IMG/VR virus record: IMGVR_UViG_3300005805_000163
Coordinates: 1 to 42,117 of that record
Source of the DNA: a virus
Taxonomy: Duplodnaviria > Caudoviricetes
Direction: 5' to 3' (one strand)
DNA length: 42,117 nt
Shown here: one piece after another, positions 9,690-25,663 of the stretch
Layout: every line of letters begins with the position of its first letter
How positions within the stretch are numbered: position 1 is the stretch's first letter
Position numbers and translations under genes: made by a program
The notes under the pieces: generated by a model
Database searches by the model: none
What the model was told of the DNA's origin: nothing
Seen by the model: the letters and a program-made list of their open reading frames with translations, nothing else

Positions 9690-9901
9690 CTGTATTTTAA
9701 TACGAACCAACTAGCCATTGGTTCGTTGTAAAAAGTAAACTTAGTTTGTCTAGGTACATCTATCATAGTGCTCCAATCAAACTTTCCCGTGGAGTACTCG
9801 AAATCAAAATCAATGTGTACTCTATACCCTAAATCTTTTAATTCAGACACAATTTCGCTGATTTGATTGCTAGATTTATGTTGGATGATAACCTCAACCA
9901 T
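9686..9901 (-). CDS. hypothetical phage protein
   Basis: 71 aa ORF ending ...ASWFVLKYS, overlapping the epimerase stop. Confidence 0.7.
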   Translation of the reverse strand: MVEVIIQHKSSNQISEIVSELKDLGYRVHIDFDFEYSTGKFDWSTMIDVPRQTKFTFYNEPMASWFVLKYS

Positions 9902-10724
9902 TTACTTTTAGTAAATCTTTTATTGTGTACAGATTCTTCATATATGGTGAAACATCTTCCAACACATAATATTCAATATCACCTTGCCGTCTTGGACCAT
10001 AGGTGACATTGATATCACAATTGTTCACTTCTTCAAACAATCTTACCATTTCTTTAACTGTATATCCTACACCATGTCCCAAACATTCGACATTATTTGC
10101 AGGCCTTTCTATAGCCAATTTAATAGAATGACACACTTCTTCTACATGCAAATAATCTCGGACACAAGTTCCATCGCTAGTATTTGGATAGTCTTTACCA
10201 TAGATAGTAAATTCTCCAGTCTCACGTGCCTTGTTTAAGTTATAAAACAATCCGTCTGCGTTAGTGGGCATTACAACCGTAGAACCTATAACATTATAGA
10301 ACCTGAAAATAGTATATTCAGCACCTGACATTTTAGTGTATGCACGAACTACATCTTCAGCACCACGTTTACTAACACCATATGCACTTAAACAATCTTG
10401 TGCTGCACCTGTACTAGCAAAGATAAAGTTTTTGGTTTTTACTTTGTTTAACACATTCATTGTACCATTCAAATTGGTAATGTAATAACTGATAGGACGT
10501 TCTTCACTTTCACTTACGCTAGTTAACGCTGCCAAATGAACAACTGCATCAAACTCAATACCTTCAATAGAAAATTGTTTGTTAATATCAATTTTGTAAA
10601 ATTTCTCTATTTCAACTTGTGAATCAACAATATCAAGTCCGTGAATTTCATATTCACCGGAGAGCATATTACAAAGATGAGAACCTATGTATCCTGAACT
10701 ACCTGTAATCAAAATCTTTTTCAT
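9894..10724 (-). CDS. galE: NAD-dependent epimerase/dehydratase (UDP-glucose 4-epimerase-like)
   Basis: TGSSGYIG, HLAA, YGVSK, GTCVRDYLHV, RRQGD. Confidence 0.85.
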   Translation of the reverse strand: MKKILITGSSGYIGSHLCNMLSGEYEIHGLDIVDSQVEIEKFYKIDINKQFSIEGIEFDAVVHLAALTSVSESEERPISYYITNLNGTMNVLNKVKTKNFIFASTGAAQDCLSAYGVSKRGAEDVVRAYTKMSGAEYTIFRFYNVIGSTVVMPTNADGLFYNLNKARETGEFTIYGKDYPNTSDGTCVRDYLHVEEVCHSIKLAIERPANNVECLGHGVGYTVKEMVRLFEEVNNCDINVTYGPRRQGDIEYYVLEDVSPYMKNLYTIKDLLKVNG

Positions 10725-12061
10725 TAAATTTCCTCAAAAAGTGATAGCCCTGTAACTTCCTCTGTTGGCTCAAAGGTCGGGTCTTTAGTTAGATATGTAT
10801 CATTATCGGTATAAATGACACGAAATTTATGTTTATTAGTAAGAACACTACGTATGTCATCAATACAAACTATATTACGCTTTAGCCCACGGACGTAATC
10901 TTGTAGCTTTACTGTGGTTTCTGTACAAATTTTTGCTGTATTACTGTTCGATTGTTTAGAACAAAATTCTGAAAAACAATCGTTCCATTTTCCAAACACA
11001 CGCCTTTCCATAAATTGGCCGTGACTCAGCGATTCTACATTGTACCAAGATTCGGCTGTCGGAAATAATTCATACAACTCTTTTGTTCTCTGAGCCATAT
11101 TTTTCTTATTGCATTTGTAAAAGAAATCCTCATTAAAGTTATTAGTCCAACGTTGATTTTCTAATACTAGTGTAGGTAATTGAAGGTGTTGTTCATAGAA
11201 CGCCATACCATAGCTTTCAACTATGCTAGGATTAAATGCTACTCTAGCACTAGTGATGAAGTCTACTTTTTCTTTACCGACAATACTAGCACGAACATCA
11301 TACTTAACCCCGATCTTCTTCAACCGTTCTTCAAACTTTTTAACACCATTTGGGCTAGTCATGACCTTAGCTGGCAGTTTGGTTTGCTCAATCAACTCAA
11401 TGAAAAGTTCAGGATTCTTTCCTTCTTCCCATCGACCAACAAATAATACACCCTCACGTGGCTTGTGATGTTCTAGTAATAAGTCTTGTTCTGTAACAGG
11501 TATAGGAAGATGCCATGCACCATTACTCATTGATACTTGATTGAACTTACTTTGTGTGCCGATCCATAGAGAATTACATTCTAATTGTTTACGCATCATA
11601 TCGTTGGTAGAATGTAAAAAAGGATTTTTAGTGTCTTTAAATATTTGGCTTTCTAGGTGCGTGTAAGCAATAATCTGAATACAATCTTCAAGTCCCATTG
11701 TTAGTGCTACTTGAATGCTTTCATATGTATTACAAACAAAGGCGTCATAGATATTATGTTCCAATGCTTCTACAATTGCATTACGAAAGTTTGCCATACG
11801 TTCATAACAGTATGTATCTCCATACATAAAAATGTTGCTATGGGTAGTATAGGGTAATGATTCCAATGGGGCAATAATGTTTGCCTTCAATGACTTTACA
11901 AATTCATTATCTTTCGGTTCTTTGTCTGTAATGATATCTACTTTGATATTGTGTTCGTCCATTAACTCGCAAAAACTTTTTGCGAACTGACCTATGCCAC
12001 CATGCGGTATTAATGTTTGATAACTTACTAAGAAGCCGACTCTTTTATTATACGTTTTCAT
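10724..12061 (-). CDS. GT-B fold (GT4-like) glycosyltransferase
   Basis: HGGIGQF, LFVGRWEEGKN, ESYGMAFYE (Ex7E). Confidence 0.8.
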   Translation of the reverse strand: MKTYNKRVGFLVSYQTLIPHGGIGQFAKSFCELMDEHNIKVDIITDKEPKDNEFVKSLKANIIAPLESLPYTTHSNIFMYGDTYCYERMANFRNAIVEALEHNIYDAFVCNTYESIQVALTMGLEDCIQIIAYTHLESQIFKDTKNPFLHSTNDMMRKQLECNSLWIGTQSKFNQVSMSNGAWHLPIPVTEQDLLLEHHKPREGVLFVGRWEEGKNPELFIELIEQTKLPAKVMTSPNGVKKFEERLKKIGVKYDVRASIVGKEKVDFITSARVAFNPSIVESYGMAFYEQHLQLPTLVLENQRWTNNFNEDFFYKCNKKNMAQRTKELYELFPTAESWYNVESLSHGQFMERRVFGKWNDCFSEFCSKQSNSNTAKICTETTVKLQDYVRGLKRNIVCIDDIRSVLTNKHKFRVIYTDNDTYLTKDPTFEPTEEVTGLSLFEEI

Positions 12062-12602
12062 GACTATTATTTACCAATGTTTCGATTGCTGCAATTAAAT
12101 CTTCGTAGTTAGAAGGTCTGTTATACTTTTTATAATCTGAAAGCCTAAGCACTGTTTGAATATCTTCGTACACATATTCTTTGGTGCATAATGGTCGTAA
12201 CTTTTCTTCGTAATCTTTATTAAAGATTAACAATTGATTTACAACCGATTTTAAATGGTCCTCTTCATAATCAATTTGATAGAATTCTGTATCAATATTA
12301 TTTTGATTGTGCCAAACATTACGTTGAATAGAAATAAAATAACTGGCTATCTGTTGAATTACGTCACGCCTATAGATACCATAAACGGTTGAAGATTTAA
12401 TCAATTCTGAAAATTGAGGTTCAACAATTTGATCAGGCATTATTTTTATAACATAGTTGCCTTCTTTGATAGTATCAAAATTGTTTTGCAGTTTATCACG
12501 ATGAAAATATTCATCGTAATTTTTGACCTTATACATTTTAGCCAGTGAATTACAAAATGCTGTAGACCCAGTTCTATAGCTTGACAATACAACTATTTTC
12601 AT
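12048..12602 (-). CDS. sulfotransferase-like protein
   Basis: SSYRTGST PAPS-binding loop, EYF, R-D...QIASYF and YED, as in Stf0-like sulfotransferases. Confidence 0.65.
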   Translation of the reverse strand: MKIVVLSSYRTGSTAFCNSLAKMYKVKNYDEYFHRDKLQNNFDTIKEGNYVIKIMPDQIVEPQFSELIKSSTVYGIYRRDVIQQIASYFISIQRNVWHNQNNIDTEFYQIDYEEDHLKSVVNQLLIFNKDYEEKLRPLCTKEYVYEDIQTVLRLSDYKKYNRPSNYEDLIAAIETLVNNSHENV

Positions 12603-12817
12603 TTACGTAGCCTATCAACTATGAAATATGTTTTGTCGTACCAGCGGTGTTCGAAGGCAGGATCGCCAGGTCCAGTATACATTGCAGTTTGTTTATAGCC
12701 GCACGTTAACCAAATAAGTTTATTCGACAGGTGGCATTTTTTTGGAAGCCATGCAAATTTATATTCAGTACCAATACAATTTCGTTCAAAGCTATCCATT
12801 TGGTCATAATAAAACAT
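12599..12817 (-). CDS. hypothetical phage protein
   Basis: KFAWLP..C..S...IWL; ATG 12817 (TAATG overlap). Confidence 0.65.
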   Translation of the reverse strand: MFYYDQMDSFERNCIGTEYKFAWLPKKCHLSNKLIWLTCGYKQTAMYTGPGDPAFEHRWYDKTYFIVDRLRK

Positions 12818-13002
12818 TACCAATTACTTACATCAGTAATATCGGTTACGATTTTTTTAGGTGTATATTCTATTTTTGTCGTAGGACCTATACCTGATTC
12901 GTGTGTTTCTATGATTGATATTTGATCCACAGTGTCATACATGTCAAACACTTCCTTCAATCTCTCAAATTGCATTCTCGTAATTACTATTTTTATCATC
13001 AT
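12817..13002 (-). CDS. hypothetical phage protein
   Basis: ATGA overlap with queE stop; ends TDITDVSNW. Confidence 0.65.
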   Translation of the reverse strand: MMIKIVITRMQFERLKEVFDMYDTVDQISIIETHESGIGPTTKIEYTPKKIVTDITDVSNW

Positions 13003-13850
13003 GTTCCCCATTCATTTTTAAACAATGGTACTTGAAGTCTATCGCTGTAACGCAGCCCATGTTTCATTGCCATTTTAGCTACTTGCTTGTTATTCATGCT
13101 GTACACTCTTTCAGTACCACCGACCGGCATGACATATACATTACCCATGAAACCATTTTTACGATAGATGTTTACTACGTCTAACACTTCTTCAACATCT
13201 TCATTAGTAGCAATAACAAACTTGAGATAGGTGTGCCCATATAGTTCATATTCACGAACAACTTCAGGACATATTGCATCTTCACGCTTTTCACCGCTAC
13301 TAGAAAGTTTAGCACTAACACTGAAGGTTAACGTTTCAATTCCCTTTTGCTTGTGCCATTGCTTTTGTAAAAACTTTTTGAAATCTTCATGCAATGGTTG
13401 AGTGCCATTTGTCTCAAATGTTAACTCTTTGAGTGCTATCATTTCAGGATAGCTAAGTAGTTCAGGATATGCACGTTGCCAGCCTAGCAATGGTTCCCCA
13501 CCTGTAATTACGAGGTGCTCGTCTACCCAACGCTTATGTGGCAACAGTTCCATAATTTTTACAACAATTTCATCAGTATTGTAGTATGGACTCAAATGTC
13601 GGAAAGCAGGATCCCATGATGCATAACTATCACATCCGCTGCTAACCAATGGCAAAGATTTGTAATCTTTATATGCGGTTATGAATCGTGCAACTCCAAT
13701 TCTTTCTTCGCTCAATTCACCTTTGGGCATACCAAATCCCGCACATTTGAAATTACAACCAAATGTACGAAGGAATACACTGGGTACACCCATATAGCGA
13801 CCTTCGCCTTGAATACTATAAAACAATTCGCTAATTTTTAATTTTTGCAT
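12999..13850 (-). CDS. queE: 7-carboxy-7-deazaguanine synthase (radical SAM)
   Basis: SELFYSIQGEG, FLRTFGCN, ITGGEPLL, FETNGT, SAKL, RLQV..F; ATG 13850 preferred. Confidence 0.92.
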   Translation of the reverse strand: MQKLKISELFYSIQGEGRYMGVPSVFLRTFGCNFKCAGFGMPKGELSEERIGVARFITAYKDYKSLPLVSSGCDSYASWDPAFRHLSPYYNTDEIVVKIMELLPHKRWVDEHLVITGGEPLLGWQRAYPELLSYPEMIALKELTFETNGTQPLHEDFKKFLQKQWHKQKGIETLTFSVSAKLSSSGEKREDAICPEVVREYELYGHTYLKFVIATNEDVEEVLDVVNIYRKNGFMGNVYVMPVGGTERVYSMNNKQVAKMAMKHGLRYSDRLQVPLFKNEWGT

Positions 13851-15019
13851 ATCTGTTCCGTAATGAATTTTGCTGTATAAGGAGCTAATGTCCAACCTAA
13901 GTGCCCGTGTCCTGTATTATAATATACTTTGTTGTTTTTGTCACTAGATTTGGTTATGGGAAGCATGTTCGGAGTCATTGGTCGAAGACATGCCCAACTG
14001 CTGTAATCATGAGCATTAACCATTGGTAGGTTTTTATGCACCCATTGCAATAATGGTTCTATTCTATCCCTACGAATATCATAGTTTTCTCCTGTTAGTT
14101 CAGCAGTGCCTGCGACTCGTAATCGATTACTTAATGTACTAGTAACTATTTTGGCTTGGTCATCTAGCAGACTAACTTTGGGCATGGCTTGATACGATTT
14201 TATATCATTAGCTGTGATAGTGATGCTATAACCCTTAACAGGATATATGTGCAAACGATCACCTATTGACTTAGCAAGATTGACACTATTGTGTCCAGCA
14301 CAAACTACTACCTTATCAAAACAGAGTAGGTAACGTATATCTTCAATTGTCTGAGAAAATACAAAATTAACATTATACCTAAATTCTAATACTTTTTGCA
14401 TCTCATAACAAAACTTATGTATATCACCGGTCCAATCAGACTTGGTATACACTCCACCAACTAAATCAGTCATATAATGTAATGTACTATCCAATGATCT
14501 GATTTGGTTAATGTTTAGTATCTCCCACTCACATTCGGTCTGTCCATATATTGATTGTGACCGCTTAGCCATATCAAAATATTTTTGATCTTTATATACA
14601 TGTAGTATTCCATCATACCTTTGATCAAAATCTATTTTTTCTTCAGTAATTATTTCTTCGTAGAGTTTTCTAGATTCTAAACCCATTCGTATAGTTTCTA
14701 ATGTATTCTTTTCATACTCATTTTTTGCAGTATGATATAAAAATTTAGTTAGCCAAACAATCTTGTCGTATTCTAAACTAGGCCGAATGAGGAGAGGTGC
14801 ATCCTTTTTGAACATCCATTTAATGCCCTTAATAACATTACTCCATGTTGTCCATACTTCACTATTGCTGACGCTCACCTGCCCACCATTGGCATAACTA
14901 CAACGCATGGCAGGGTAATGCTCACTATCGTAAACAGTGACCTTGCACCCTGCCTTAGCCAGATAATATGCAGTTGTAATACCAGAAATTCCGGCACCTA
15001 TAACGGCAACTTTACTCAT
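13838..15019 (-). CDS. dadA: FAD-dependent D-amino acid dehydrogenase-like oxidoreductase
   Basis: GAGISG, SYANGGQ, YPVKGYSIT, LRVAGTAE, LRPMTP, NTGHGHLGWT. Confidence 0.88.
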   Translation of the reverse strand: MSKVAVIGAGISGITTAYYLAKAGCKVTVYDSEHYPAMRCSYANGGQVSVSNSEVWTTWSNVIKGIKWMFKKDAPLLIRPSLEYDKIVWLTKFLYHTAKNEYEKNTLETIRMGLESRKLYEEIITEEKIDFDQRYDGILHVYKDQKYFDMAKRSQSIYGQTECEWEILNINQIRSLDSTLHYMTDLVGGVYTKSDWTGDIHKFCYEMQKVLEFRYNVNFVFSQTIEDIRYLLCFDKVVVCAGHNSVNLAKSIGDRLHIYPVKGYSITITANDIKSYQAMPKVSLLDDQAKIVTSTLSNRLRVAGTAELTGENYDIRRDRIEPLLQWVHKNLPMVNAHDYSSWACLRPMTPNMLPITKSSDKNNKVYYNTGHGHLGWTLAPYTAKFITEQICKN

Positions 15020-15552
15020 ACGTATAAATCTTCATTCCATTCACGATGACCTTCACGGAAAGCCATATTACTTTGCGTTTCACGTACTTCTACACGATAG
15101 CACCAAAGTCTATTGGCTTCATGTTCTCCAAGCATATCAGGAATATACACGGTATTCATATATTTGTAAAGCATATCGGCTAAACCCTCACATCCTAGTC
15201 TGGGAAGTATTGTAAGTTTAGCCAATTTCTTTTCTTGTAATAACTTGAATGTTTCTAACTCTGGATCGTCTTGTGCCACAAGTAATGTATGATCAAATTG
15301 ATCTTCAAGAATTTTCTTAAGTTCTTTTAGTCCACCATAATCCATAGCCCAATTACGAATGTCTAGATTATCAGTCCCGAAATAAAACTTCATACTAAAA
15401 CTATAGCCATGAATCAGATTACAATGACTATCTGCACGCCATTGCCGATATGCACACGGAAATGCATCATGATATTCTTTAGTACTGGTGTACTTGTATT
15501 GGCGAGTGCTGCGCCAAATGTGTGAAGTTTCTTCAATGTTTTGATTTGCCAT
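15016..15552 (-). CDS. queD: 6-carboxytetrahydropterin synthase (QueD/PTPS family)
   Basis: HCNLIHGY, DYGGLK, FDHTLL, GCE, VRET; AAGGAG SD; close to queE. Confidence 0.88.
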   Translation of the reverse strand: MANQNIEETSHIWRSTRQYKYTSTKEYHDAFPCAYRQWRADSHCNLIHGYSFSMKFYFGTDNLDIRNWAMDYGGLKELKKILEDQFDHTLLVAQDDPELETFKLLQEKKLAKLTILPRLGCEGLADMLYKYMNTVYIPDMLGEHEANRLWCYRVEVRETQSNMAFREGHREWNEDLYV

Positions 15553-15586: not shown

Positions 15587-15628
15587 TGACAGCAGAATTT
15601 ATAGAGCGGGATGATGCCAAAGACCGCT
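15587..15628 (-). ncRNA. candidate preQ1-I-like riboswitch aptamer (H-type pseudoknot) in queD leader
   Basis: AGCGG-UCUUUGGCAUCAUC-CCGCU stem-loop, CUAUAAA tail, loop UGGCA complementary to downstream UGUCA. Confidence 0.55.
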
Positions 15629-15632: not shown

Positions 15633-16487
15633 TCACTTAAGTCCCATTTGTTGACGTATTTTGGTAGCACTAATGCTAGTAATACTTTCATCAAATGTTT
15701 CTTGTTCTATCTTATAGCCTACGTCACGACCATATGTGATGTTTACAATATTTGGAACTACAATAATTTCGTACTGACCTTGATACAGTGGATCTAAGTC
15801 TCGTTTAATATACTCTTTTACTTGTTCTAATGCAAATGGATTGGATCCCTGCCACCCTTGACAGTCACGAATCATGATACATACTTGACCTGTTTTAGCA
15901 ATTGCTCGTTCAAATAATGCACGATGGCCAGGATGCCATGGTTGCCAACGTCCTAACATTTGAACAGTTTCTTTTTGCCAATTGAATGTTGGTCTTCGGC
16001 GATTTTCTAATATATGTTGCCCAACAAACTCTACCCACTTTTCAGCATTTTGTTCAGTGATTCTAAAATCATATACGTCTGGTGGTACAAATGCTTTATT
16101 AGTATCTTCGTAACGACCTTTATCTATGGTATCTATCCATATAGTCCAATCAGCTTTGAAGTTATTACGCATTTCGGGTAATGGTGCTACAAAGTCACAA
16201 ATAACATAATCACCGGTGCATTTAAGTGCAAACTCAAGCATACGCAGACTTTGACGAATTCTACCCTCTTTACTAAAATCCCAGTCATTATATTGTCTAC
16301 GAACATCGTCAGCGTTAAACCAATCTACTTTACTTTTATAGAAAGAAGGAGGTACTTCATATTCTACTAAACGTTCAAAAGGCATAGTGTCAACGCTAGA
16401 AAAATCTTCTAAGTATTTTTTCAAACGTTCTGCGAAATACGTTTTACCTGAACCAGGTAAACCCATTATTAATATTCTCTTAGTCAT
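15633..16487 (-). CDS. APS-kinase-like P-loop domain fused to an HxGH nucleotidyltransferase domain
   Basis: GLPGSGKT, NADDVR, DFSKEGR, DFVAP (CysC-like); MLGRWQPWHPGH, YGRDVGY, ISATKIR. Confidence 0.8.
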   Translation of the reverse strand: MTKRILIMGLPGSGKTYFAERLKKYLEDFSSVDTMPFERLVEYEVPPSFYKSKVDWFNADDVRRQYNDWDFSKEGRIRQSLRMLEFALKCTGDYVICDFVAPLPEMRNNFKADWTIWIDTIDKGRYEDTNKAFVPPDVYDFRITEQNAEKWVEFVGQHILENRRRPTFNWQKETVQMLGRWQPWHPGHRALFERAIAKTGQVCIMIRDCQGWQGSNPFALEQVKEYIKRDLDPLYQGQYEIIVVPNIVNITYGRDVGYKIEQETFDESITSISATKIRQQMGLK

Positions 16488-16956
16488 TCTTTTCCCTTTT
16501 ATTTAATTCTGCTTCTGCAACACGCTTACGTAAACTACTGGAACTAAAACTATGATCACGTTTGTTAAAAATGTGTTCTATCCCCCTACCTGCCCCCTCA
16601 TTTCTACCCGTGAAGTTTGTATCTTCATATTCAACACCTAAAATGCGAATATCAATAGGTAGTGTCAGTATCAAGTCCACTAAGTCACGTTCTGTTTCAT
16701 ATACAACAATCTCATCTACAAAACGGCAAGCACTCAATTGTATTTGACGTTCTACTAAACTCTGTACAGGTTTATTTTTAGTATCAGGTCTATCAATAGT
16801 AGGATCAGTTTGCAATCCACATATCAAATAATCGCAATGATTTTTTGCTTCACTGAGCATAGCAATATGCCCGGCATGCAATAGGTCAAAGGTACTTGCA
16901 GTAAATCCTATTTTTAAACCTTTGTCTTTTAGTTCTTTTATTTTGTTAAATATCAT
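16480..16956 (-). CDS. TagD-like cytidylyltransferase
   Basis: STFDLLHAGH, GLQTDP, ER...L..C.FVDE, SSSSLR. Confidence 0.85.
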   Translation of the reverse strand: MIFNKIKELKDKGLKIGFTASTFDLLHAGHIAMLSEAKNHCDYLICGLQTDPTIDRPDTKNKPVQSLVERQIQLSACRFVDEIVVYETERDLVDLILTLPIDIRILGVEYEDTNFTGRNEGAGRGIEHIFNKRDHSFSSSSLRKRVAEAELNKREKND

Positions 16957-17438: not shown

Positions 17439-17567
17439 TTACTCCTTTGGTACACAAGTACAATTTCTACCCTGATTGCAATCACCTGTACAACTACTAG
17501 GTGGTAACCTACGAGAAATTGATAACACTACGGCAATCAATAAAATTAATAAAAGAATAGTAATCAT
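17439..17567 (-). CDS. small membrane-anchored Cys-rich peptide (42 aa)
   Basis: Not in track; ATGA-coupled to folE; MITILLLILLIAVVLSISRRLPPSSCTGDCNQGRNCTCVPKE. Confidence 0.7.
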   Translation of the reverse strand: MITILLLILLIAVVLSISRRLPPSSCTGDCNQGRNCTCVPKE

Positions 17568-18244
17568 TTGCATCCTGCCCTTGCTATTTGATAAAATTCA
17601 TTCCTCACTTCTGGATCTGTTTTAAACCCACCGCCTAGTCTTGTCGTTACCGTGCTAGAACCTGTATCTTCTACACCACGACTTTTTACGCAATAATGCT
17701 GTGCGTCAATCATGACTGCAACATCTTCTGTGTCCAAAATAAATTGTAATGTATGAAAAATTTGTTCAGTAAGACGTTCTTGAATTTGTGGACGCTTACT
17801 GAAATATTCTACGATACGATTAATTTTAGATAATCCCAACACTTTGTTCTTAGGCACATATGCAACAGTAGCGGTACCATCAATGATAACAAAGTGATGC
17901 TCGCAATTACTCTGAACATTGACATTCCTTTCAACGACCATTTCATTATATTTCATTTTATTGTCAACTGTTGTACATTTAGGGAACGCATCGTAGTCTA
18001 GTCCCCAAAAGATTTCATTGACATACATCTTAGCAACACGTTTAGGTGTTTCGATAAGACTATCATCAGTTAAGTCTAGTCCTAAGGCCCTCATGATTTC
18101 AGCAAAGTTACCTTCGATGATATCAATCTGTTCCTTACGGTCTAGATTACGTTTTTTGATTGGGGTTTCAACACCCATCTTGACAAGATGTTCATGAACT
18201 TTTTGACCCAATTCTGGATCGGTTTTTGTTTTGTTATACGACAT
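17564..18244 (-). CDS. folE: GTP cyclohydrolase I
   Basis: ETPKRVAKMY, SNCEHHF, GLSKINR, RPQIQERLT, HYCVKSRGV. Confidence 0.97.
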   Translation of the reverse strand: MSYNKTKTDPELGQKVHEHLVKMGVETPIKKRNLDRKEQIDIIEGNFAEIMRALGLDLTDDSLIETPKRVAKMYVNEIFWGLDYDAFPKCTTVDNKMKYNEMVVERNVNVQSNCEHHFVIIDGTATVAYVPKNKVLGLSKINRIVEYFSKRPQIQERLTEQIFHTLQFILDTEDVAVMIDAQHYCVKSRGVEDTGSSTVTTRLGGGFKTDPEVRNEFYQIARAGCK

Positions 18245-18331: not shown

Positions 18332-19135
18332 TTAATTTATATAGCCCTTTTGTTTTAAAAATGGAATAACAACGTAATCCACAAATGCTTTATGCTGTAA
18401 TGTATGCGGGTGTTTAAAATGTCCGAATTCTACCACATCATCCCATGTTTTAGGATCTTGGAATTCTGCACACCAATCATACTCACTTTTTACCGGTAAC
18501 CAATTACCAAAATCGATTTGATCATATAGATACTTTATATCAGGATGATTCATTATCTCAGGTTTATCAGGAAAAGTCGGATAATAGTACTGTGTCATGA
18601 AATACCTAATGTTCTTTTGTTTTAAAAACCATTGAACCCTAAGTATATGTTCTAAGGTTTGCATGAATGCACCAATATCATCATATATGTGCTTATAATA
18701 TATTTTTGAAAGGTCGTCATCCCAATAAGGCATCACTTTGTAGAAGTTCGGCTCTCCACCTACAGTAGCCGGATTCATAGTATTTTGATCTTCATTCCAA
18801 GACCTATGAATCAAATAATAATCGTGTCGAGGCTCGCTTAAATAAATCTCTTGTCTATACGCACCACTCCACATAATACCTACTAAAATTTCTTCGGGTT
18901 TATACGTTTCAAGTGCTTTGATTACTTCGTAAATCGTAGTCCTACTTATAATGCCGTTACCAGAAGCTCCTTTTCCTCGATACTTTGGTAAACAATTTAG
19001 GTGATTAACTAAATGTACAGGCCAAGATAAGGCGTACTTTGTATAGTCATCAATATTAACTTGCGTTGACTCTTGTATTTCAGGTACAGGAACTTCAGTA
19101 AAACTACATCCTGTGGTTATCAAATACTTTATCAT
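18332..19135 (-). CDS. SGNH-hydrolase-like hypothetical protein (GCSF family)
   Basis: GCSFT, SWP, G..N..I, MWS..R, terminal HP..H; paralog of 23069. Confidence 0.5.
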
Positions 19136-20211
19136 TTCAAAAACACATCATTGATTTGACGGTTAACTTTTATAAACGTAGTACACTTACTTAATTGTTT
19201 TAATGTAGGAGCCCCTACATATGTACAGGTGCTACGCAGTCCTCCCAGCAAATCTAAGATAGTATCTTTTACAGGACCTTTAAAAGGTACTCGTACAGTT
19301 CTACCTTCGCTACTGCGATATTCTGCGACTCCGCCGTGATGTTTGTTCATAGCGGTGTCACTACTCATACCATAAAATTCTACAAATTTCTTTTCTTCTA
19401 ACTTTGGTCTGTTACACAATATATCATAACTACTAATAGGATGATCCTCTGTTATGATTTTACCACCACCCTCTATATGTCCCGCAAGCATACCACCCAG
19501 CATAACAAAATCGGCACCAGCACCAAAGGCTTTAGCAACGTCGCCAGGACAAGTGCAACCACCATCAGCGATAATATGTCCGCCAAGGCCATGAGCAGCA
19601 TCGCTACATTCGATGATGGCAGACAATTGCGGATAACCCACACCAGTCTGCAACCTTGTAGTGCATACGCTGCCAGGACCAATGCCCACTTTAACGATAT
19701 CAGCTCCACGTAGTATTAACTCCTGTGTCATATCGGCTGTAACAACATTTCCTGCTATGATTGTATGATTAGGATAAAGTCTACGCACTTCTGCTACGAA
19801 ATCGCCAAAGTGTTCACTATAACCATTTGCTATATCAATGCAAATAAAATGTATTGCAGGGTAATCGTCCAAGATGGCACATAATTTGTTTAAGTCTTTT
19901 TCACTAGTACCTGTACTTACTGCAAAATAATTACCGCCTATATCTTGCAATGTAGTTTCAAAATATTCGGTACCGATATTCTTTACTAGACAGGTAAACA
20001 TACGATGTTTGTACAACTCATTTGCCATTTGCAATGTGCCGACCCCATCCATATTACTAGCCATGATGGGAATTCCTGTCCATTCCCATTTACTATGCTT
20101 AAACTTATATGTGCGTTTTAAGTCAACTTCCTTTCGACTAGCTAGGGTACTTCTTTTTGGTCTAATCAATACATCTTTGAAGTCTAACTTAACATCTTCT
20201 TCGATACGCAT
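19132..20211 (-). CDS. guaC: GMP reductase
   Basis: [53 protein letters not shown]. Confidence 0.96.
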
Positions 20212-20403: not shown

Positions 20404-20412
20404 TTTATCTCC

Positions 20413-21588
20413 TTAATATTTGGCTTCACGTGTGTGTTTGCGATAGTCTTTAGACATACGTAAGTATTGTTCTCCCTTACCTTCAAGAATATCACAAATT
20501 CTATCAATCGTGCCATTATTGTAAGAACTTATCTTACCAATATTAGCATGAGGTTTCTTCAATAAATGTTCTAGCTTGGTCAGTGCATCTTCTATAGACC
20601 AAGGCACATACATTCTTTCATGATCATTCGCAAAAGTTTCAGGGAATGACCTATATGCAGGATACAAAACGTTACATCCTAATGCGTCCCCTTCGCTTAC
20701 TGTGTTACTTACCCAATCTTGTAATGCACAATTGAATACTACCTTACTGTTGCTAAGTATTTCATAATATTCATTTTTTTCTAAATCTTCGTAAATCACC
20801 AACTTGCCTTCATCTTGAAATTTACGAGTTCTAACCATATAACTATCATTGTTACTTCGTAGTTTTCCGCCGCTACAAACGCAAAATACTACATCGTTGT
20901 TAGGATGACGCTTATACCAAGCATCAATTAAATCCATATAAAAGTCTGGTTGTTTTTCTTGATCCCATCGTGCAGAAAACACTACACGATTTCGCCTGTT
21001 ATGAAATGGTGCAATTTTGTCTACTCGGTTGATAACTTCGCTTTTGCCAAATGCTAGCCCACTAATATTGTATATAGGAGCAGTCCATCCAGCAATACGC
21101 ATATGAGCAACCATTTCTTCGTTCGTGGCGAGAATTCCATCCACGAACTCATTAACCAATTTTTCGTAGTGTCCCATCCATGTCGCCATACCCCATACAT
21201 GCACAAAATCATCAGGATCAATGGACTGAGCAAGACAGCGAACAAAGACGCGGGGACGTAGATTACTAGGGACTTGATTAAGTATGTAAGGTAAACTTTC
21301 GATACCGGGTTGAAACATGTCCTCAAAGTATATAACATCTTCACTTGTAACTTCTCCTTGCTGCATTAATTTTACTAAATTCATCATTTGGCTCATACTA
21401 AAATAGCTGCGCCCATGTGCATCTAACACTTGACCTACTACAATTTTTTGTTGATTGTCAAGTGTTGATCCCTGTACATATGTTACATCATACTTTCTCT
21501 TTTCAAAAACAGCTTTATTCCATTCTGTTAATTGCAGTGTGTATCTCGCTTTGTAGGATTCTAATCCCATGTAATATAATTTACGCAT
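20413..21588 (-). CDS. GT-B fold glycosyltransferase
   Basis: VVFSARWDQEKQPDF, QDWVSNTVSE, YP.YRSFPE nucleotide-sugar binding half. Confidence 0.75.
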   Translation of the reverse strand: MRKLYYMGLESYKARYTLQLTEWNKAVFEKRKYDVTYVQGSTLDNQQKIVVGQVLDAHGRSYFSMSQMMNLVKLMQQGEVTSEDVIYFEDMFQPGIESLPYILNQVPSNLRPRVFVRCLAQSIDPDDFVHVWGMATWMGHYEKLVNEFVDGILATNEEMVAHMRIAGWTAPIYNISGLAFGKSEVINRVDKIAPFHNRRNRVVFSARWDQEKQPDFYMDLIDAWYKRHPNNDVVFCVCSGGKLRSNNDSYMVRTRKFQDEGKLVIYEDLEKNEYYEILSNSKVVFNCALQDWVSNTVSEGDALGCNVLYPAYRSFPETFANDHERMYVPWSIEDALTKLEHLLKKPHANIGKISSYNNGTIDRICDILEGKGEQYLRMSKDYRKHTREAKY

Positions 21589-22351
21589 TTCGCCTTTCTA
21601 TATCCTCTTCTATACATTGTTCCCCATGTTGAACTTCAAGTATATGACAATATTCATCATAGTTATTTTGGCATTGATGCCAAACCCCTTGCCCAATATC
21701 ATAGGTTTCGTTTGTGTGTTTACTAATTGTTATTTTACTACCTTTGTAATCAGTTGCAATATCACATTTACCCTTAAGTATATACCAATGTTCGCTACGC
21801 ATAAAATGACGTTGCATACTTAAACTTTTACCCGGTTCGATAACTAATTCTTTAACTTTGTACCCGGGCTTATCATCCAATACTCTATACCATCCCCATG
21901 GTCTTTTGTATTTTGGATTTTTCCATTCTTCTAATATCCAACTTGAACTATTCTTTTTGTTGCTACCACCTACACCAAATTTGAATGTTAGATTTTTATC
22001 CATAACACTCATTTCGGGAATGTTAGCCGCTGTTCTATCGCCACCGTTAGCAAAAATTATTTCTGCGTCAGGATACATTTGCCGTACATTTTTTATTGCT
22101 TCTATACTTGAACCATCATCGTCATTATACAATATACAATGATCCACCATATATAAGTTTTCGACAATACTTTGTCGCTCATGAAATGGCATAAAAGGTT
22201 GGCCCTTTTTACGGGCCAACCATGCATCAGAATTAAGTCCTACAACTAATATATCACCTAATTCTTTTGCTGCTTTGAAATACTCAATGTGACCGGAGTG
22301 AATCGGATCGAATCCTCCGGTCACAAGTACAATTTTACTCGGTCTTTGCAT
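21581..22351 (-). CDS. cytidylyltransferase fused to a mannose-6-phosphate isomerase type II cupin
   Basis: TGGFDPIHSGH, FANGGDR; RPWGWY, LSMQRH..RSEHW, EVQHG..C.EEDIER. Confidence 0.85.
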   Translation of the reverse strand: MQRPSKIVLVTGGFDPIHSGHIEYFKAAKELGDILVVGLNSDAWLARKKGQPFMPFHERQSIVENLYMVDHCILYNDDDGSSIEAIKNVRQMYPDAEIIFANGGDRTAANIPEMSVMDKNLTFKFGVGGSNKKNSSSWILEEWKNPKYKRPWGWYRVLDDKPGYKVKELVIEPGKSLSMQRHFMRSEHWYILKGKCDIATDYKGSKITISKHTNETYDIGQGVWHQCQNNYDEYCHILEVQHGEQCIEEDIERRNA

Positions 22352-22544
22352 CTAGTTCCCACATATCTTTTACAGGTTTCCCTGATAGATATTTAGTAAA
22401 CTGACGATATGCGAAACTTTTATTGCTGTAAATGTCTGATTCATCGAATTTATAACCGAACTTTTTACAGAATTCAAGATACTTTTCCAAGTCCTCAAAA
22501 ATTTGTTTAACACGAGGATTGGGTTTAATATCAGGTTTTGCCAT
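22335..22544 (-). CDS. hypothetical phage protein
   Basis: 69 aa ORF with AAGGAG SD. Confidence 0.75.
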   Translation of the reverse strand: MAKPDIKPNPRVKQIFEDLEKYLEFCKKFGYKFDESDIYSNKSFAYRQFTKYLSGKPVKDMWELDAKTE

Positions 22545-22555
22545 TAATTTCTCCT

Positions 22556-23023
22556 TTAAACGGCGAGTTGTTGATAAGGTTGATGTGTTTTATAAGAAAT
22601 TGTGGCACCGTTCTCACCATCTTCACTGACGGTAATCTCAATGTCACGCCCTGGATAACGACTAGCGATTTGTTCATAAAGGTCATCACTAATCATTTCG
22701 CAGCTTTTATAATCTAGCGACAATACACCTTGTGCGCCAGAATACAATTGTTCAAGCCACCGCTTGAATTGAATGAACTCCACATCTCTGTCGTTATGCC
22801 AAACTTGTATAGCAACAGTAAAGTGAAAAATATGCCTATGAGGGAAACCCAAAAACGAAACGTCATACATATCTCCTGTTTTAAGTGACGGATCTTCTGC
22901 CGCCGCTGGGTATTTATGAATACCTTCTTTGCGAAAGGTTACCCAAATCATTCTAGTTGCTTTATCACGAATGCGTTCACGTTTCATTTTAAGTTCAGTT
23001 TCACGTTGTTGGTTCATAATCAT
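22556..23023 (-). CDS. dpdL: QueD-paralog T-fold protein, DpdL-like
   Basis: EGIH.YP, LGFPHRHIF (LxxxHRHxF), SCEM, VSEDGENG; deazaguanine gene context; motif assignment is from memory of the family. Confidence 0.65.
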   Translation of the reverse strand: MIMNQQRETELKMKRERIRDKATRMIWVTFRKEGIHKYPAAAEDPSLKTGDMYDVSFLGFPHRHIFHFTVAIQVWHNDRDVEFIQFKRWLEQLYSGAQGVLSLDYKSCEMISDDLYEQIASRYPGRDIEITVSEDGENGATISYKTHQPYQQLAV

Positions 23024-23037
23024 TCCTCAGTATTAAT

Positions 23038-23066
23038 AGTATACATAATTACGTATGTGATTGCAA
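23038..23066 (-). promoter_or_regulatory. sigma70-type promoter
   Basis: TTGCAA-17-TATACT upstream of GAGG SD of the dpdL-like gene. Confidence 0.7.
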
Positions 23067-23068
23067 CT

Positions 23069-23905
23069 TTATAGGAAAAATCCATCATCTTCTAAGTGCG
23101 GTAGCATGACTTCATTTAACCATATGCGATGCCCCAATCCATTTAAATGATTATCTGACGCACCCTTGAAACATTCAGGATTATTTTGAAAATAGCTATA
23201 CATAGATTGTTCAGAAATAAACGTACTGTGGTCTAGCTGTTTATACAAATATTTAATAATTTGGTGATCCTTGTGTGTTTCAAAATCTTCGAACACATAT
23301 GGAATAGTCACTTGTTGATAAAGCTTAATATTTTTAGCTTTGCAGTAAGTCTGCAAGAAAATAATGTTTTCTAAACTAAGATGAACAGCAGCTAAAGAAT
23401 TTGCATGTAATGACATCATGAAATAATCACGCATCATTTGAATATCGTCTGCAACATGACAACTTGTTATTAGCCAACCGCCCTTTTTATTATAAGGAAC
23501 TCTATTATTAATAGAACTTTGCGTAACGATTACTGCTTCATCCTCTAATTCATTATTTAAATTAGCCAATTGATACTGCCAACCTTGTTTAGATTTAGCC
23601 CAATTGTCTGTGAGGGTTTTTATGAAATCAGGATTGTCTACATAAAAACTTTTTCTGTCATTAGAAGTCCACATAACAAATACACATAGTTCTTCGGGTT
23701 TGTACCCTTCATCCAATGCTTGCTCTACTGCATGAATTGCCTTTTTCTGTATTAATTCTTGTCCTTGACTTCCCATGCCACGATGATCAAACTTAACCGA
23801 ATCGTTAAGTTTCTTAATATAAGTTTCTAATTGTAATGGCCAAACCCAAGGGGTATTGGCTTCACTGAAACTACATCCTGAGGTGATTATTTTTTTATAT
23901 TTCAT
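23069..23905 (-). CDS. SGNH-hydrolase-like hypothetical protein (GCSF family)
   Basis: SGCSFS, WP, MWT..R, terminal H...GH; paralog of 18332. Confidence 0.5.
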   Translation of the reverse strand: MKYKKIITSGCSFSEANTPWVWPLQLETYIKKLNDSVKFDHRGMGSQGQELIQKKAIHAVEQALDEGYKPEELCVFVMWTSNDRKSFYVDNPDFIKTLTDNWAKSKQGWQYQLANLNNELEDEAVIVTQSSINNRVPYNKKGGWLITSCHVADDIQMMRDYFMMSLHANSLAAVHLSLENIIFLQTYCKAKNIKLYQQVTIPYVFEDFETHKDHQIIKYLYKQLDHSTFISEQSMYSYFQNNPECFKGASDNHLNGLGHRIWLNEVMLPHLEDDGFFL

Positions 23906-24108
23906 CTATCATCCTCAAATTTTACGTATTGGTCATAGTCATATTGTTTTCTACGTAATTCTCTAAGTTCAGAAAGGTACCGTGTTTTAGTTTCTGTTAA
24001 TGTTTTTAATTTGTCTTGATCTGTGTTTGGGCGTTGTTGCAATGTGTCAATTTCATTTTCAACTGACTTGTACAAATTTTCCAATGTCCTAATTCGTTGC
24101 TCGTACAT
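23902..24108 (-). CDS. small coiled-coil hypothetical protein
   Basis: 68 aa ORF, AGGAG SD. Confidence 0.7.
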   Translation of the reverse strand: MYEQRIRTLENLYKSVENEIDTLQQRPNTDQDKLKTLTETKTRYLSELRELRRKQYDYDQYVKFEDDR

Positions 24109-24109
24109 A

Positions 24110-25663
24110 TTATTCTCCTAATACATCTGCCATAGCATCGTCACTATCAATGATTTCTTCATCGACTTCTGGTTCACCTTGAACCTCAAACATTTGATCA
24201 AACATCGTCATAGCATTGACTAATTTTTTGCCACTGATACCTTGACTGCCACTTTGCATTTGAGTCCATAGACTTGAGTGAGATTTTATCAATGCCTTAC
24301 TACTATCTCTGTCTTTAAGACTGAAAATTTCATCAATGATATCTCCAAAATGATAGTTATCAAAACGATTCATAATCATTTTAGGCATGATACCTTTCTC
24401 GTATTTACGATTAGCCTCTTGTACAGCAACAATGTGTTGATATACATTATGACTTTGTAGTAAGGTATAACTAAGTGTATCCCAGCTAGTCTTTGTTTCC
24501 TTACCATGTTGTCCAATAAATCCATGACCACGGTAACATAAATCTTTCATAACCATTTTATCAGTTACTGGGCTATTAGTAAAAACACTATGTATATTGT
24601 CTTGTAGCACAGCTAATTGAAACGGTCTGTTGTCTGTTGCATAGTTTTTATTTTCAGCAGTTTTTTCCATCTGATAAGACCATTTCTTACCATGTTCAAA
24701 ACTGTTATTGAAGTATGCCAGACCTTTAGCCGCACTAAAGAATGGACTAGCACAGTCAAATGTAATTTGCAACTTTGGATTATGATATTTGCGTATAGCT
24801 TTTTGTATATCAGTAAACAACAGTGCATATTCTAAGATACTAACACCAAGACAGTGTACTAAATCATGTTTGCCTTCTTGTAGTAAGCCATCATGTATGA
24901 TATCTACAAAACGATTTAGCATTAACTCTACATCGATTTTGTTCTGACCACCGAATGCCCAGCCGTTGAAATGATTGTCGGGATAGATATTGGGATCACA
25001 GTATTTTTTCATCTCTGCATACCAATCATCACTTTGTTTGTGATTACGTCCTTGCAATACATTTAAAAACTTGCACTTGCCACTGCGATTCTTGATAAAG
25101 TAATCATTATTAATATGTGTAGCTGCAATGGCTTCTTCAATTGTACTGATACCGTGTGCTGATTTACCCGTCTTAGGGTCTTTGATATGAAACGTAGTAA
25201 GTGATTGACTTGGAATATCTAGACACATACCATAATCCATGTATGTATCCATCCATGTCAATACTTCTTTACGCTTTTTCATAGCACGTGGGCAATTAAT
25301 ATCTTTCCAATCAGCGGGCCATTGACATTTAAGAATCTGAAAGCCACCACTATCACCTAACATAAACGTGCCAGCTTCACGCTCACGTATAATGCTTTCA
25401 TTTGGATCGTTCTTTGTTACATCTAAGTTGGCATGTCCTGCACTATACAGACCCCACTTGTATGTGTAAAGACCTTGCTTGCTGTTTAGAAAGTTAAGAC
25501 ATTCAACATCACCGTTAAAGCCGGCAGGAATCCGAGACTTTTCAAAGTACTCCTCTCCTTTACGTTGTTTGCCTAATCCACTAATATAAAAACTAGACAC
25601 TGCTGGTAAAAACAGTGCCCAATCAGGATTATGTTTTTGTGAAAGATTATCTTGTTCTATCAT
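24110..25663 (-). CDS. dpdA: TGT-family 7-deazaguanine DNA transglycosylase (DpdA-like)
   Basis: GDSGGFQ, LDIP, NVLQG, GWAFGG, HCLG, TFDCAS TGT-fold motifs; located between replication genes and the folE/queD/queE cluster. Confidence 0.8.
   Translation of the reverse strand: MIEQDNLSQKHNPDWALFLPAVSSFYISGLGKQRKGEEYFEKSRIPAGFNGDVECLNFLNSKQGLYTYKWGLYSAGHANLDVTKNDPNESIIREREAGTFMLGDSGGFQILKCQWPADWKDINCPRAMKKRKEVLTWMDTYMDYGMCLDIPSQSLTTFHIKDPKTGKSAHGISTIEEAIAATHINNDYFIKNRSGKCKFLNVLQGRNHKQSDDWYAEMKKYCDPNIYPDNHFNGWAFGGQNKIDVELMLNRFVDIIHDGLLQEGKHDLVHCLGVSILEYALLFTDIQKAIRKYHNPKLQITFDCASPFFSAAKGLAYFNNSFEHGKKWSYQMEKTAENKNYATDNRPFQLAVLQDNIHSVFTNSPVTDKMVMKDLCYRGHGFIGQHGKETKTSWDTLSYTLLQSHNVYQHIVAVQEANRKYEKGIMPKMIMNRFDNYHFGDIIDEIFSLKDRDSSKALIKSHSSLWTQMQSGSQGISGKKLVNAMTMFDQMFEVQGEPEVDEEIIDSDDAMADVLGE

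What the first reader, a model, noticed from the sequence alone, without database searches (positions are those of the whole stretch)
9894..25663. QueC-less 7-deazaguanine DNA-modification locus interleaved with sugar and sulfate tailoring enzymes
Seen: folE, queD, queE, a second T-fold protein and a TGT-like gene right after polymerase and clamp, co-oriented with two GT-B glycosyltransferases, a GalE-like epimerase, two cytidylyltransferases (one fused to a PMI cupin), an APS-kinase fusion, a sulfotransferase and DadA. No QueC, QueF or Gat-QueC is in the window. Established: FolE/QueD/QueE make CDG from GTP, and phage DpdA swaps deazaguanines into DNA against restriction. Inference: the base is CDG or its decarboxylated form, and the interleaved enzymes may add further groups, giving a possibly undescribed hypermodified guanine.
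Basis: partly seen in the sequence, partly recalled or inferred. Interest (0 to 1): 0.85.

Follow-up and report, generated by a model that had tools for sequence, protein, structure and literature searches.

The report
Sugar transferase in phage deazaguanine pathway
An uncultured large phage carries the gene set that other phages use to swap guanine in DNA for 7-deazaguanine, and one sugar-transferase gene sits beside those genes in several unrelated phages, so its DNA likely carries a sugar-decorated purine that nobody has yet measured, while the neighbouring sulfate and amino-acid enzymes are likely passengers.

Summary
The genes are there as described. FolE, QueD, QueE, DpdL (22556-23023) and a TGT-fold DpdA (24110-25663) without QueC form the published set that gives 2'-deoxy-7-deazaguanosine in Cellulophaga phage phiST; the PA5oct orthologues are already tabulated by Cui et al. 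2023.

The new part is one GT4-like glycosyltransferase (20413-21588). Among 50,697 phage records its family occurs in 23: 18 lie beside dpdL in six lineages; 5 near-identical ones form a group whose one examined member has it beside Gat-QueC. It goes with long DpdA2-like enzymes (55 of 60 dpdL loci), never with short phiST-type DpdA3 (0 of 23). This predicts a glycosylated 7-deazaguanine in DNA (about 55%; no chemistry done, attachment site open).

The second transferase, epimerase and one cytidylyltransferase are conserved in this phage clade but not tied to the pathway elsewhere. The sulfotransferase, DadA, GuaC and kinase fusion are variable passengers, so the sulfate-tailoring idea fails. 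The window is the whole 42-kb contig; complete relatives lack queC/queF. No searched paper describes such a base. This scan has found the same module before on other DNA (25 findings in at least 24 genomes). Cultured PA5oct/Paride and BUCT-ZZ01 allow a direct LC-MS test.

The parts
24110..25663 (-). Long DpdA (DNA-guanine transglycosylase), 517 aa, DpdA2-like group; core
   Evidence: TGT fold Z 19.8. Motifs DSGGFQ 104, LD 148-149, QG 204-205, GG 238-239, HxLG 270, D303; D104, D149, G205, G239, H270 and D303 invariant in 49 homologues. 33% to PA5oct QCG76197.1. Profile match to DpdA2-like set 98.4%, to phiST-type 7.9%.
22556..23023 (-). DpdL, T-fold, predicted CDG decarboxylase; core
   Evidence: 35% to phiST CGPG_00067; LxxxHRHxF and H36/H62/H64, R79, E82, S107, E109 conserved.
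20413..21588 (-). GT4-like GT-B glycosyltransferase (GT391), 391 aa, predicted to glycosylate the deazaguanine; core
   Evidence: Model pLDDT 96; best Z 26.9, rmsd 3.9, 341 aligned, among GT4-like enzymes. Donor motifs R207-x4-K212 and D291-x7-E299. Family found in 23 of 50,697 phage records, 18 beside dpdL.
17564..18244 (-). FolE, GTP cyclohydrolase I; core
   Evidence: NCBIfam above cut-off.
15016..15552 (-). QueD, CPH4 synthase; core
   Evidence: PTPS E 1.9e-16, PHROG 2389 E 1e-38, CxxxHGY at 44.
12999..13895 (-). QueE, CDG synthase (radical SAM; CxxxC at 47-51, third Cys apparently at 88 after an insertion); core
   Evidence: PHROG 2076 E 8.9e-52; QueE NCBIfams below cut-off; motif read from sequence.
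15588..15628 (-). Conserved RNA motif in the 80-nt queD leader, candidate preQ1-I-like riboswitch
   Evidence: 55 nhmmer hits among 77 distinct queD leaders; stem AGCGG/CCGCT with three compensatory variants among the printed rows; no Rfam match at E<=1. Ligand untested; second stem read by eye.
10724..12061 (-). Second GT4-like glycosyltransferase (GT445); conserved in this clade, link to the pathway uncertain
   Evidence: Pfam GT1 E 6.8e-5, Atlas GT4 hits 0.97-0.99. Inside the deaza cluster in BUCT-ZZ01 and L177; far from it in BUDD; present in Erwinia phage pEa_SNUABM_3 without FolE/QueD/DpdL/DpdA.
9894..10724 (-). GalE-like NDP-sugar epimerase; possible donor supply
   Evidence: Pfam E 2e-33; follows GT445 in 67 of 70 loci; 8 of 60 long-DpdA and 0 of 23 short-DpdA dpdL loci.
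16480..16956 (-). HxGH cytidylyl/adenylyltransferase; clade-conserved, not pathway-specific
   Evidence: 83 of 86 clade loci between folE and queD; 1 of 60 long-DpdA and 4 of 23 short-DpdA loci elsewhere.
21581..22351 (-). Nucleotidyltransferase-PMI cupin fusion; accessory
   Evidence: 16 of 43 clade loci between dpdA and folE.
15633..16487 (-). P-loop kinase-nucleotidyltransferase fusion; accessory
   Evidence: APS-kinase E only 8e-5; 44 of 86 clade loci; 0 of 83 other dpdL loci.
12048..12602 (-). Stf0-like sulfotransferase; passenger
   Evidence: 0 of 74 loci between queE and GT445; only hit among stored loci is L184, 100% identical.
13838..15019 (-). DadA-like D-amino acid dehydrogenase; passenger
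   Evidence: 466 vs 494 bits; 9 of 87 loci.
19132..20211 (-). GMP reductase GuaC; accessory
   Evidence: Above NCBIfam cut-off; 3 of 43 loci between dpdA and folE.
22335..22544 (-). 69-aa unknown protein between dpdL and GT391
   Evidence: 61 of 61 clade loci that hold both dpdA and GT391; no Pfam or PHROG family.

Best explanation
The locus holds the five genes of the QueC-less 7-deazaguanine pathway plus a tightly linked GT4-like glycosyltransferase, and likely makes a sugar-bearing 7-deazaguanine in the phage's DNA as an anti-restriction shield. Steps: FolE, QueD and QueE convert GTP to CDG (established chemistry of these families). DpdL decarboxylates CDG to 7-deazaguanine (predicted by Cui et al., not shown in vitro). 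The long DpdA exchanges it for guanine in replicated DNA, probably at a subset of sites (inferred from the TGT fold and the DpdA2-like family). GT391 then transfers a hexose from an NDP-sugar onto the inserted base (inferred from co-occurrence). I favour attachment on the major-groove C7 side (about 0.3 overall) over the N2 amine (about 0.15) or other sites (about 0.1). GalE and the nucleotidyltransferases may tune the donor; the sulfotransferase, DadA and GuaC are not part of it.
For: (1) Three seeds (window, ACP17, Phosso) retrieve 17, 23 and 23 of 50,697 records; a fourth (PhiXhv-12) returns 20 of the same 23. FolE homologues occur in 405 records. 18 of the 23 are among the 28 DpdL records, with the GT within about 3 kb of dpdL in six lineages: PA5oct group, ACP17, BUDD/X1, BCSR5, BUCT-ZZ01, Phosso. 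(2) In 83 dpdL loci with a DpdA in view, the GT is present in 55 of 60 with a long DpdA and 0 of 23 with a short phiST-type DpdA; at 50% DpdA identity, 13 of 14 vs 0 of 6 clusters, Fisher p 1.8e-4 without phylogenetic correction. A GT profile finds nothing genome-wide in 6 of 6 short-type isolates and rings in 4 of 4 positive controls. (3) GT+ and GT- states are interleaved on the DpdL tree: 7 changes, at least 4 forced by supported branches. (4) Vibrio phage 2.275.O has the same pol-clamp-DpdA slot followed by an amidoligase-like gene with QueF and QueC-type genes, and no GT391 or DpdL: the tailoring gene changes with the base. (5) GT391 has an intact GT-B fold and donor-binding motifs. (6) PA5oct DNA resists five G-containing restriction sites and its base is unidentified (PMC12191111 passages). 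(7) A glycosyltransferase acting on a 7-deazaguanine core has a precedent in huimycin (PMC7439116). (8) No QueC or QueF above cut-off in complete close relatives G005 and G007 or in 5 of 5 GT+ isolates.
Against: No chemistry exists for any GT+ phage in what I read. DpdL activity was not shown; ACP17 and phiST DpdL plus DpdA gave no dDG in E. coli. Plain 7-deazaguanine has no hydroxyl or amine at C7, and I recall no C-glycosylating GT4 enzyme. The fold search does not single out DNA transferases: T4 alpha-glucosyltransferase ranks 23rd (Z 21.3), below small-molecule enzymes. The link is not exclusive: PhiXhv-12 has a divergent family member beside Gat-QueC and no DpdL. L107-L109 (one cluster, contigs 12-17% complete where tested) have a long DpdA and DpdL without the GT. 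In Phosso the long DpdA lies about 170 kb from dpdL and the GT. DpdA2 enzymes are promiscuous and could insert host preQ0. Most of this phage's genome is missing.
Confidence: 0.55

Rival explanations
1. The DNA carries an already known base (dDG, dCDG, or dPreQ0 from host QueC), and GT391 acts on something else (virion or host protein, LPS) while hitch-hiking with the replication genes.
For: The same five-gene set gives plain dDG in phiST. Jumbo-phage sugar clusters with epimerases, cupins, HIGH nucleotidyltransferases and GTases are interpreted as surface-polysaccharide modifiers (PMC7824862 passage). This fits GT445, GalE, the PMI fusion and the sulfotransferase well.
Against: Hitch-hiking does not explain adjacency to dpdA or dpdL in different gene orders in six lineages, absence from all 23 short-DpdA loci, or restriction of the family to deazaguanine phages.
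Confidence: 0.2
2. GT391 glycosylates the free base or a pterin precursor, and the long DpdA inserts the finished glycoside (or the glycoside is a side product).
For: The GT tracks DpdA type rather than DpdL lineage. Top fold matches are small-molecule GT4-like enzymes, including a tetrahydrobiopterin glucosyltransferase at Z 23.2. HuiG acts on a free base. GT391 is not a basic protein (pI 6.4).
Against: In the phage cases I read, tailoring of the base is proposed to occur on DNA (DpdM). A sugar on the Watson-Crick edge would hinder TGT recognition (inference).
Confidence: 0.12
3. GT391 modifies DNA, but at another position (a neighbouring base, an abasic intermediate left by DpdA, or the backbone).
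For: Avoids the missing acceptor group on 7-deazaguanine; still explains linkage to DpdA.
Against: No hydroxymethylase or other handle-making gene recurs in the GT+ neighbourhoods that I annotated (30 representatives). It does not explain the swap to an amidoligase-like gene in 2.275.O.
Confidence: 0.08
4. One reading: both GTs, the sulfotransferase, kinase fusion and DadA build one sulfated, multi-sugar guanine adduct.
For: All genes are co-oriented and tightly spaced; GT445 sits inside the cluster in BUCT-ZZ01 and L177.
Against: Sulfotransferase 0 of 74, DadA 9 of 87, kinase fusion 44 of 86 in close relatives; none of the three recurs in the distant clusters examined.
Confidence: 0.05

Closest known systems
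DpdL/DpdA3 dDG system of Cellulophaga phage phiST (Cui et al. 2023, PMC10516641)
   Same: FolE, QueD, QueE, DpdL and a TGT-family enzyme, no QueC or QueF; DpdL signature conserved.
   Different: DpdA here is 517 aa with DSGGFQ, unrelated by BLAST or profile to the 259-aa phiST enzyme. GT391 is present here and absent from phiST. A dCTP-deaminase/dUTPase-like gene marks 14 of 23 short-type loci and 0 of 60 long-type loci.
Pseudomonas phage PA5oct/Paride (Wroclawvirus) deazaguanine locus
   Same: pol-clamp-dpdA-GT-dpdL-GalE-like-queE; DpdA 33%, GT 24%, DpdL 54% identical. Listed as DpdA3+DpdL in Cui Data S1.
   Different: folE and queD lie elsewhere in PA5oct/Paride; no GT445 hit. The GT accession is not in the Cui supplement and the base is not identified.
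Synechococcus phage BUCT-ZZ01 cluster
   Same: queE, queD, folE, GT445 (39%), long DpdA, dpdL, GT391 (64.5%) in one compact block.
   Different: Kyanoviridae backbone, ACP17-type DpdA2; none of the window's accessory genes; uncharacterised.
T4 alpha/beta-glucosyltransferases on 5-hydroxymethylcytosine
   Same: GT-B enzyme proposed to glycosylate a non-canonical base in phage DNA; T4 AGT Z 21.3, rmsd 3.8, 322 aligned.
   Different: Pyrimidine hydroxyl acceptor; 11% identity; no closer than other GT-B enzymes.
HuiG of huimycin biosynthesis (PMC7439116)
   Same: Glycosyltransferase clustered with FolE/QueD/QueE, attaching a sugar to a 7-deazaguanine core.
   Different: Acts on a free, O-methylated preQ0 at the 2-amino group for a secondary metabolite; QueC present, no DpdA. 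Sequence relation to GT391 not tested.

Membership tests
DpdL-type dDG system (phiST) | FolE, QueD, QueE present | tested here: met
DpdL-type dDG system (phiST) | DpdL with LxxxHRHxF and three His | tested here: met
DpdL-type dDG system (phiST) | No QueC/QueF in the genome | tested here: inconclusive
   None in the 42-kb contig. QueC above cut-off in 1 of 15 related records, and that hit covers only model positions 2-77 in a protein without the QueC Cys motif. QueF above cut-off in 1 of 14, the GT-negative control 2.275.O.
DpdL-type dDG system (phiST) | DpdA of the short phiST (DpdA3) type | tested here: not met
   No BLAST match at E<=1, profile probability 7.9%. Cui Data S1 lists the PA5oct orthologue under DpdA3, but its accession appears nowhere else in the supplement, including the DpdA3 PSI-BLAST sheet.
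DpdL-type dDG system (phiST) | All dG replaced by dDG in virion DNA | not testable with these tools
   needs LC-MS
TGT/DpdA transglycosylases | TGT barrel fold | tested here: met
   Z 19.8, rmsd 4.4, 306 aligned
TGT/DpdA transglycosylases | Catalytic and guanine-binding Asp/Gln/Gly residues | tested here: met
   D104, D149, G239, D303 invariant and Q204 nearly invariant in 49 sequences; equivalence to TGT residues is by motif and recalled numbering
DpdA2 subfamily | Sequence clustering with DpdA2 members | tested here: inconclusive
   Profile match 92.9-98.4% to sets holding ACP17, BUDD and BCSR5 DpdA2 at about 18% identity; founder nt-1 DpdA2 not compared
GT4-like retaining GT-B glycosyltransferases | Two-Rossmann GT-B fold | tested here: met
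GT4-like retaining GT-B glycosyltransferases | R-x4-K and (E/D)-x7-E donor motifs | tested here: met
   R207/K212 invariant, D291 98%, E299 91% in 122 sequences; motif definitions recalled
Phage DNA glycosyltransferases (T4 AGT/BGT) | DNA acceptor, base flipping | tested here: inconclusive
   T4 AGT rank 23 of 50, not above other GT-B enzymes; no surface analysis possible
preQ1-I riboswitch (RF00522) | Match to the Rfam model | tested here: not met
   no Rfam match at E<=1 in 9600-26900; conserved covarying stem present

The most novel reading that the evidence does not exclude
A widespread phage module (long DpdA + DpdL + a dedicated GT4-like family) installs a glycosylated 7-deazaguanine in DNA, a sugar-bearing purine of a kind I found in no paper, possibly through an unusual C7 glycosidic bond, with a second transferase extending it in some lineages and a deazaguanine-sensing leader RNA tuning queD.
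Probability: 0.5. Interest if true: 0.85.

Novelty: new variant of a known kind. Interest (0 to 1): 0.66.

Why it matters
The eight known DNA 7-deazaguanines (Cui et al.) include no sugar, and the DNA glycosylation I know of is on pyrimidines (recalled). A glycosylated purine would be a new base class and a new enzyme chemistry. It would be common: the window's DpdA and GT each had at least 6,900 hits at 90% clustering in capped searches. It would also give a candidate identity to the unidentified modified G of PA5oct, a phage studied for therapy, and may explain why DpdL plus DpdA of ACP17 gave no dDG when expressed without their neighbours. The test needs only DNA from phages already in culture.

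Tried and rejected
Sequence search of the DpdA profile against PDB: 0 hits; the fold search settled it. GT profile against PDB: only weak GT4-like hits. Weak QueC hits in relatives: one is NAD synthetase (BUDD), one a PP-loop protein without the QueC Cys motif; for the three others checked (L094, L096, L265) the ORF my script printed may not be the matched frame, so I rely on their sub-threshold scores. APS-kinase and sulfate-tailoring reading: rejected on weak scores and patchy presence. Cytidylyltransferase as a pathway part: rejected, it occurs with both DpdA types. A 173-aa family beside the module in 40 of 60 long-DpdA loci is absent from the window and from 4 of 4 close relatives; its proposed QueE kinship was not supported by my profile comparison (7.4%) and Atlas hits were under 0.9. 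The DpdA3 label was rejected. A scan of bacterial/archaeal genomes with the GT gave 4 loci, all with dpdL; three also show polB, clamp and dpdA, so they look like phage contigs in MAGs. No tRNA genes in the window. No complex prediction or read mapping was run.

Full report
Setting. The window is a whole 42,117-bp viral contig, about 36% GC, with almost all genes on the minus strand. Close relatives in IMG/VR reach 230-525 kb, so it is a fragment of a large phage. The finding starts just downstream of polB and a clamp-like gene. All 26 gene junctions from polB to 9686 are overlaps or gaps of at most 87 nt.

Observation. FolE and GuaC pass NCBIfam cut-offs. QueD and QueE match their PHROG families strongly. 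The 155-aa T-fold protein is DpdL: it hits 28 of 50,697 phage records, including phiST CGPG_00067, the founder, and keeps the LxxxHRHxF signature. The 517-aa protein has no Pfam, PHROG or NCBIfam hit, but its model (pLDDT 88) matches TGTs (Z 19.8) and the TGT motifs are conserved in 49 homologues. The APS-kinase and sulfotransferase labels rest on weak partial matches.

The core is published. Cui et al. (bioRxiv 10.1101/2023.04.13.536721, parts 2-5 of 6 read) showed that phiST, with FolE, QueD, QueE, DpdL and DpdA3 but no QueC, replaces all dG by dDG. They could not show DpdL activity in E. coli. Their Data S1 (PMC10516641 supplement; part 1 of 19 read, plus term searches) lists PA5oct with the same set. 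Its QCG76197.1 is the orthologue of the window's DpdA (33%). That label is doubtful: the window's enzyme does not match phiST DpdA3 (profile 7.9%) but does match ACP17/BUDD/BCSR5-type DpdA2 profiles (92.9-98.4%). I call these the long, DSGG-type DpdAs.

Is queC elsewhere? Not testable for this genome. QueC was above cut-off in 0 of 5 close IMG/VR relatives, 0 of 5 GT-positive isolates and 1 of 5 further records. That one hit covers model positions 2-77 only, in a protein without the QueC cysteine motif. QueF was above cut-off in 1 of 14 records, the control phage 2.275.O. Two complete close relatives (G005, G007) lack both. The host could still supply preQ0.

Core versus passengers. Of 80 DpdA-anchored loci, 41 had at least 4 kb downstream; all 41 carry dpdL and GT391. 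Between anchor genes, in 160 partly overlapping clade loci: cytidylyltransferase 83 of 86, kinase fusion 44 of 86, PMI fusion 16 of 43, DadA 9 of 87, GuaC 3 of 43, sulfotransferase 0 of 74; galE follows GT445 in 67 of 70. The sulfotransferase hit only L184, which is 100% identical over the match. These loci are close kin (73-85% DpdA identity), so this shows synteny, not function.

The cross-lineage test. GT391 hits 17 of 50,697 phage records at E<=1, all among the 28 DpdL records. Seeds from ACP17 and Phosso return 23 records each, and a PhiXhv-12 seed returns 20 of those. FolE occurs in 405 records. Eighteen of the 23 have dpdL and fall into six lineages with different gene orders: dpdA-GT-dpdL in PA5oct/Paride and ACP17, GT-dpdA-dpdL in BUDD, dpdL...GT-dpdA in BCSR5, GT445-dpdA-dpdL-GT in BUCT-ZZ01, dpdL-GT in Phosso. 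The 10 DpdL records without the GT represent six phages, all with a short DpdA. A GT profile found nothing genome-wide in 6 of 6 and rang in 4 of 4 positive controls.

I then fetched dpdL loci with two distant seeds. Of 96 loci considered, 13 lacked a DpdA or scored DpdL in view and were dropped. Of the remaining 83, the GT was present in 55 of 60 long-DpdA loci (4 of the 5 misses had under 2 kb of flank on one side) and 0 of 23 short-DpdA loci (14 with adequate flank). At 50% DpdA identity this is 13 of 14 against 0 of 6 clusters, one short cluster set aside as too short; Fisher p 1.8e-4, uncorrected for kinship. On a 28-row DpdL tree the GT label needs 7 changes, at least 4 forced by supported branches, no fewer than shuffles. 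So DpdL is not split by GT presence, and the pairing has been gained or lost several times.

Controls and exceptions. Vibrio phage 2.275.O has the same DpdA type in the same slot, followed by an amidoligase-like gene (PF12224, E 1.8e-4, at the cut-off edge), QueF, YhhQ and a queuosine gene; it has no GT391 and no DpdL. PhiXhv-12 has a divergent GT391-like gene (E 7e-27) beside Gat-QueC, with FolE, QueD and a long DpdA elsewhere and no DpdL; I examined 1 of the 5 records in that group. The family therefore stays with deazaguanine pathways but not only with DpdL. L107-L109 have a long DpdA and DpdL without the GT on small fragments. GT445 is looser: in the cluster in BUCT-ZZ01 and L177, distant in BUDD, and present in 21 Erwinia phage records, of which the one tested has no deazaguanine genes.

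The enzyme. The GT391 model (pLDDT 96) is GT-B, closest to GT4-like retaining enzymes (Z 26.9). The viral fold search ranks an unnamed 370-aa protein first and the ACP17 homologue second. Donor-side residues R207, K212, D291 and E299 are conserved, as are many acceptor-domain residues (E10, R15, D56, R60, D90, D124, D127, W137, E142). It looks active, but structure does not name the acceptor.

Mechanism. Shown here: the genes, their families, the linkage. Established elsewhere: GTP to CDG; base exchange by DpdA. Predicted in print: decarboxylation by DpdL. My inference: glycosylation of the inserted base. I favour the C7 side, because the tailoring gene changes with the C7 chemistry (2.275.O) and because, from my own knowledge, polymerases tolerate major-groove bulk better than N2 bulk. 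N2 remains a real alternative: HuiG attaches GlcNAc there on a free deazaguanine (PMC7439116 passages), and that gene family carries a GT4-type domain (10.64898/2026.04.15.718813 passages). [quoted passage not shown]

Regulation. Following a lead from earlier scan notes, I checked the 80-nt queD leader. It holds a motif found in 55 hits among 77 distinct leaders, with a stem showing three compensatory variants, and no Rfam match. It resembles a preQ1-I riboswitch in layout (recalled); the ligand is untested.

Literature. Nine searches found no glycosylated 7-deazaguanine in DNA; DpdL appears only in Cui et al.. The GT accessions of PA5oct, ACP17 and BUDD are absent from the Cui supplement. I also saw passages of PMC13282480, PMC12783734, PMC7824862, 10.1101/2025.10.29.685425 and PMC6884629; none makes this link. 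The supplements of PMC7824862 and PMC12191111 were not read and may bear on PA5oct. Most subscription papers are outside the library. This scan has noted the same module in other genomes; my reading was recorded before I looked.

Verdict. A known DpdL-type pathway with a different DpdA group and a dedicated glycosyltransferase: a new variant of a known kind, about 55% likely to yield a glycosylated deazaguanine in DNA, directly testable in cultured phages. The sulfate and amino-acid enzymes are passengers.

Noticed in passing
window 15588-15628 (-): Conserved, covarying RNA motif in the queD leader; candidate preQ1-I-like riboswitch with no Rfam match.
   Followed up: partly
L266:9803-16829 (Vibrio phage 2.275.O, MG592671.1): Same long DpdA followed by an amidoligase-2-like gene, QueF, YhhQ, a queuosine gene, an Ntn hydrolase and FolE; would predict an acylated preQ1 in DNA.
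   Followed up: partly
L272:3406-11833 (Xanthomonas phage PhiXhv-12): Gat-QueC, PIG-L deacetylase, GT391-like gene, GFO oxidoreductase and a GNAT in one block; another candidate deazaguanine hypermodification.
   Followed up: partly
L274:6211-11089 (Erwinia phage pEa_SNUABM_3): GT445-like gene beside a methyltransferase (CmoA-like by my recall), DUF1611, an alanine-racemase-like and an asparagine-synthase-like gene; possible unrelated DNA modification cluster.
   Followed up: no
L169:4911-5432; L085:6326-6724: Uncharacterised 130-175-aa family beside the module in 40 of 60 long-DpdA and 0 of 23 short-DpdA loci, absent from the window's clade.
   Followed up: partly
L118:7505-8008 and other short-DpdA loci: dCTP-deaminase/dUTPase-like gene in 14 of 23 short-DpdA loci and 0 of 60 long-DpdA loci; hints that full dG replacement uses a nucleotide-pool route.
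   Followed up: no
L178:9789-10286; L084:7093-7554: Phosphoribosyltransferase near dpdL in 26 of 60 long and 4 of 23 short loci; could salvage released guanine; none found in the window.
   Followed up: no
window 12999-13895 (-): QueE has CxxxC at 47-51 with the third cysteine apparently 36 residues later, after an insertion.
   Followed up: no
window 18332-19135 and 23069-23905 (-): Two paralogous DUF6071-like proteins (26% identical) inserted in the locus, rare in relatives.
   Followed up: no
window 8250-9689 (+): The only long plus-strand gene; GP88 family (PF17338, E 3e-24) with a cysteine-containing motif, often beside galE in relatives.
   Followed up: no
window 29566-38693 (-): FkbM methyltransferase, TilS-like N-terminal domain, three related unknown proteins (31281, 33004 and 5624), a radical SAM enzyme and a kinase-like protein upstream of polB.
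   Followed up: no
L091:7182-8363; L093:7428-8312; L134:5971-6888: DpdL appears fused to, or in frame with, longer ORFs in some short-DpdA phages.
   Followed up: no
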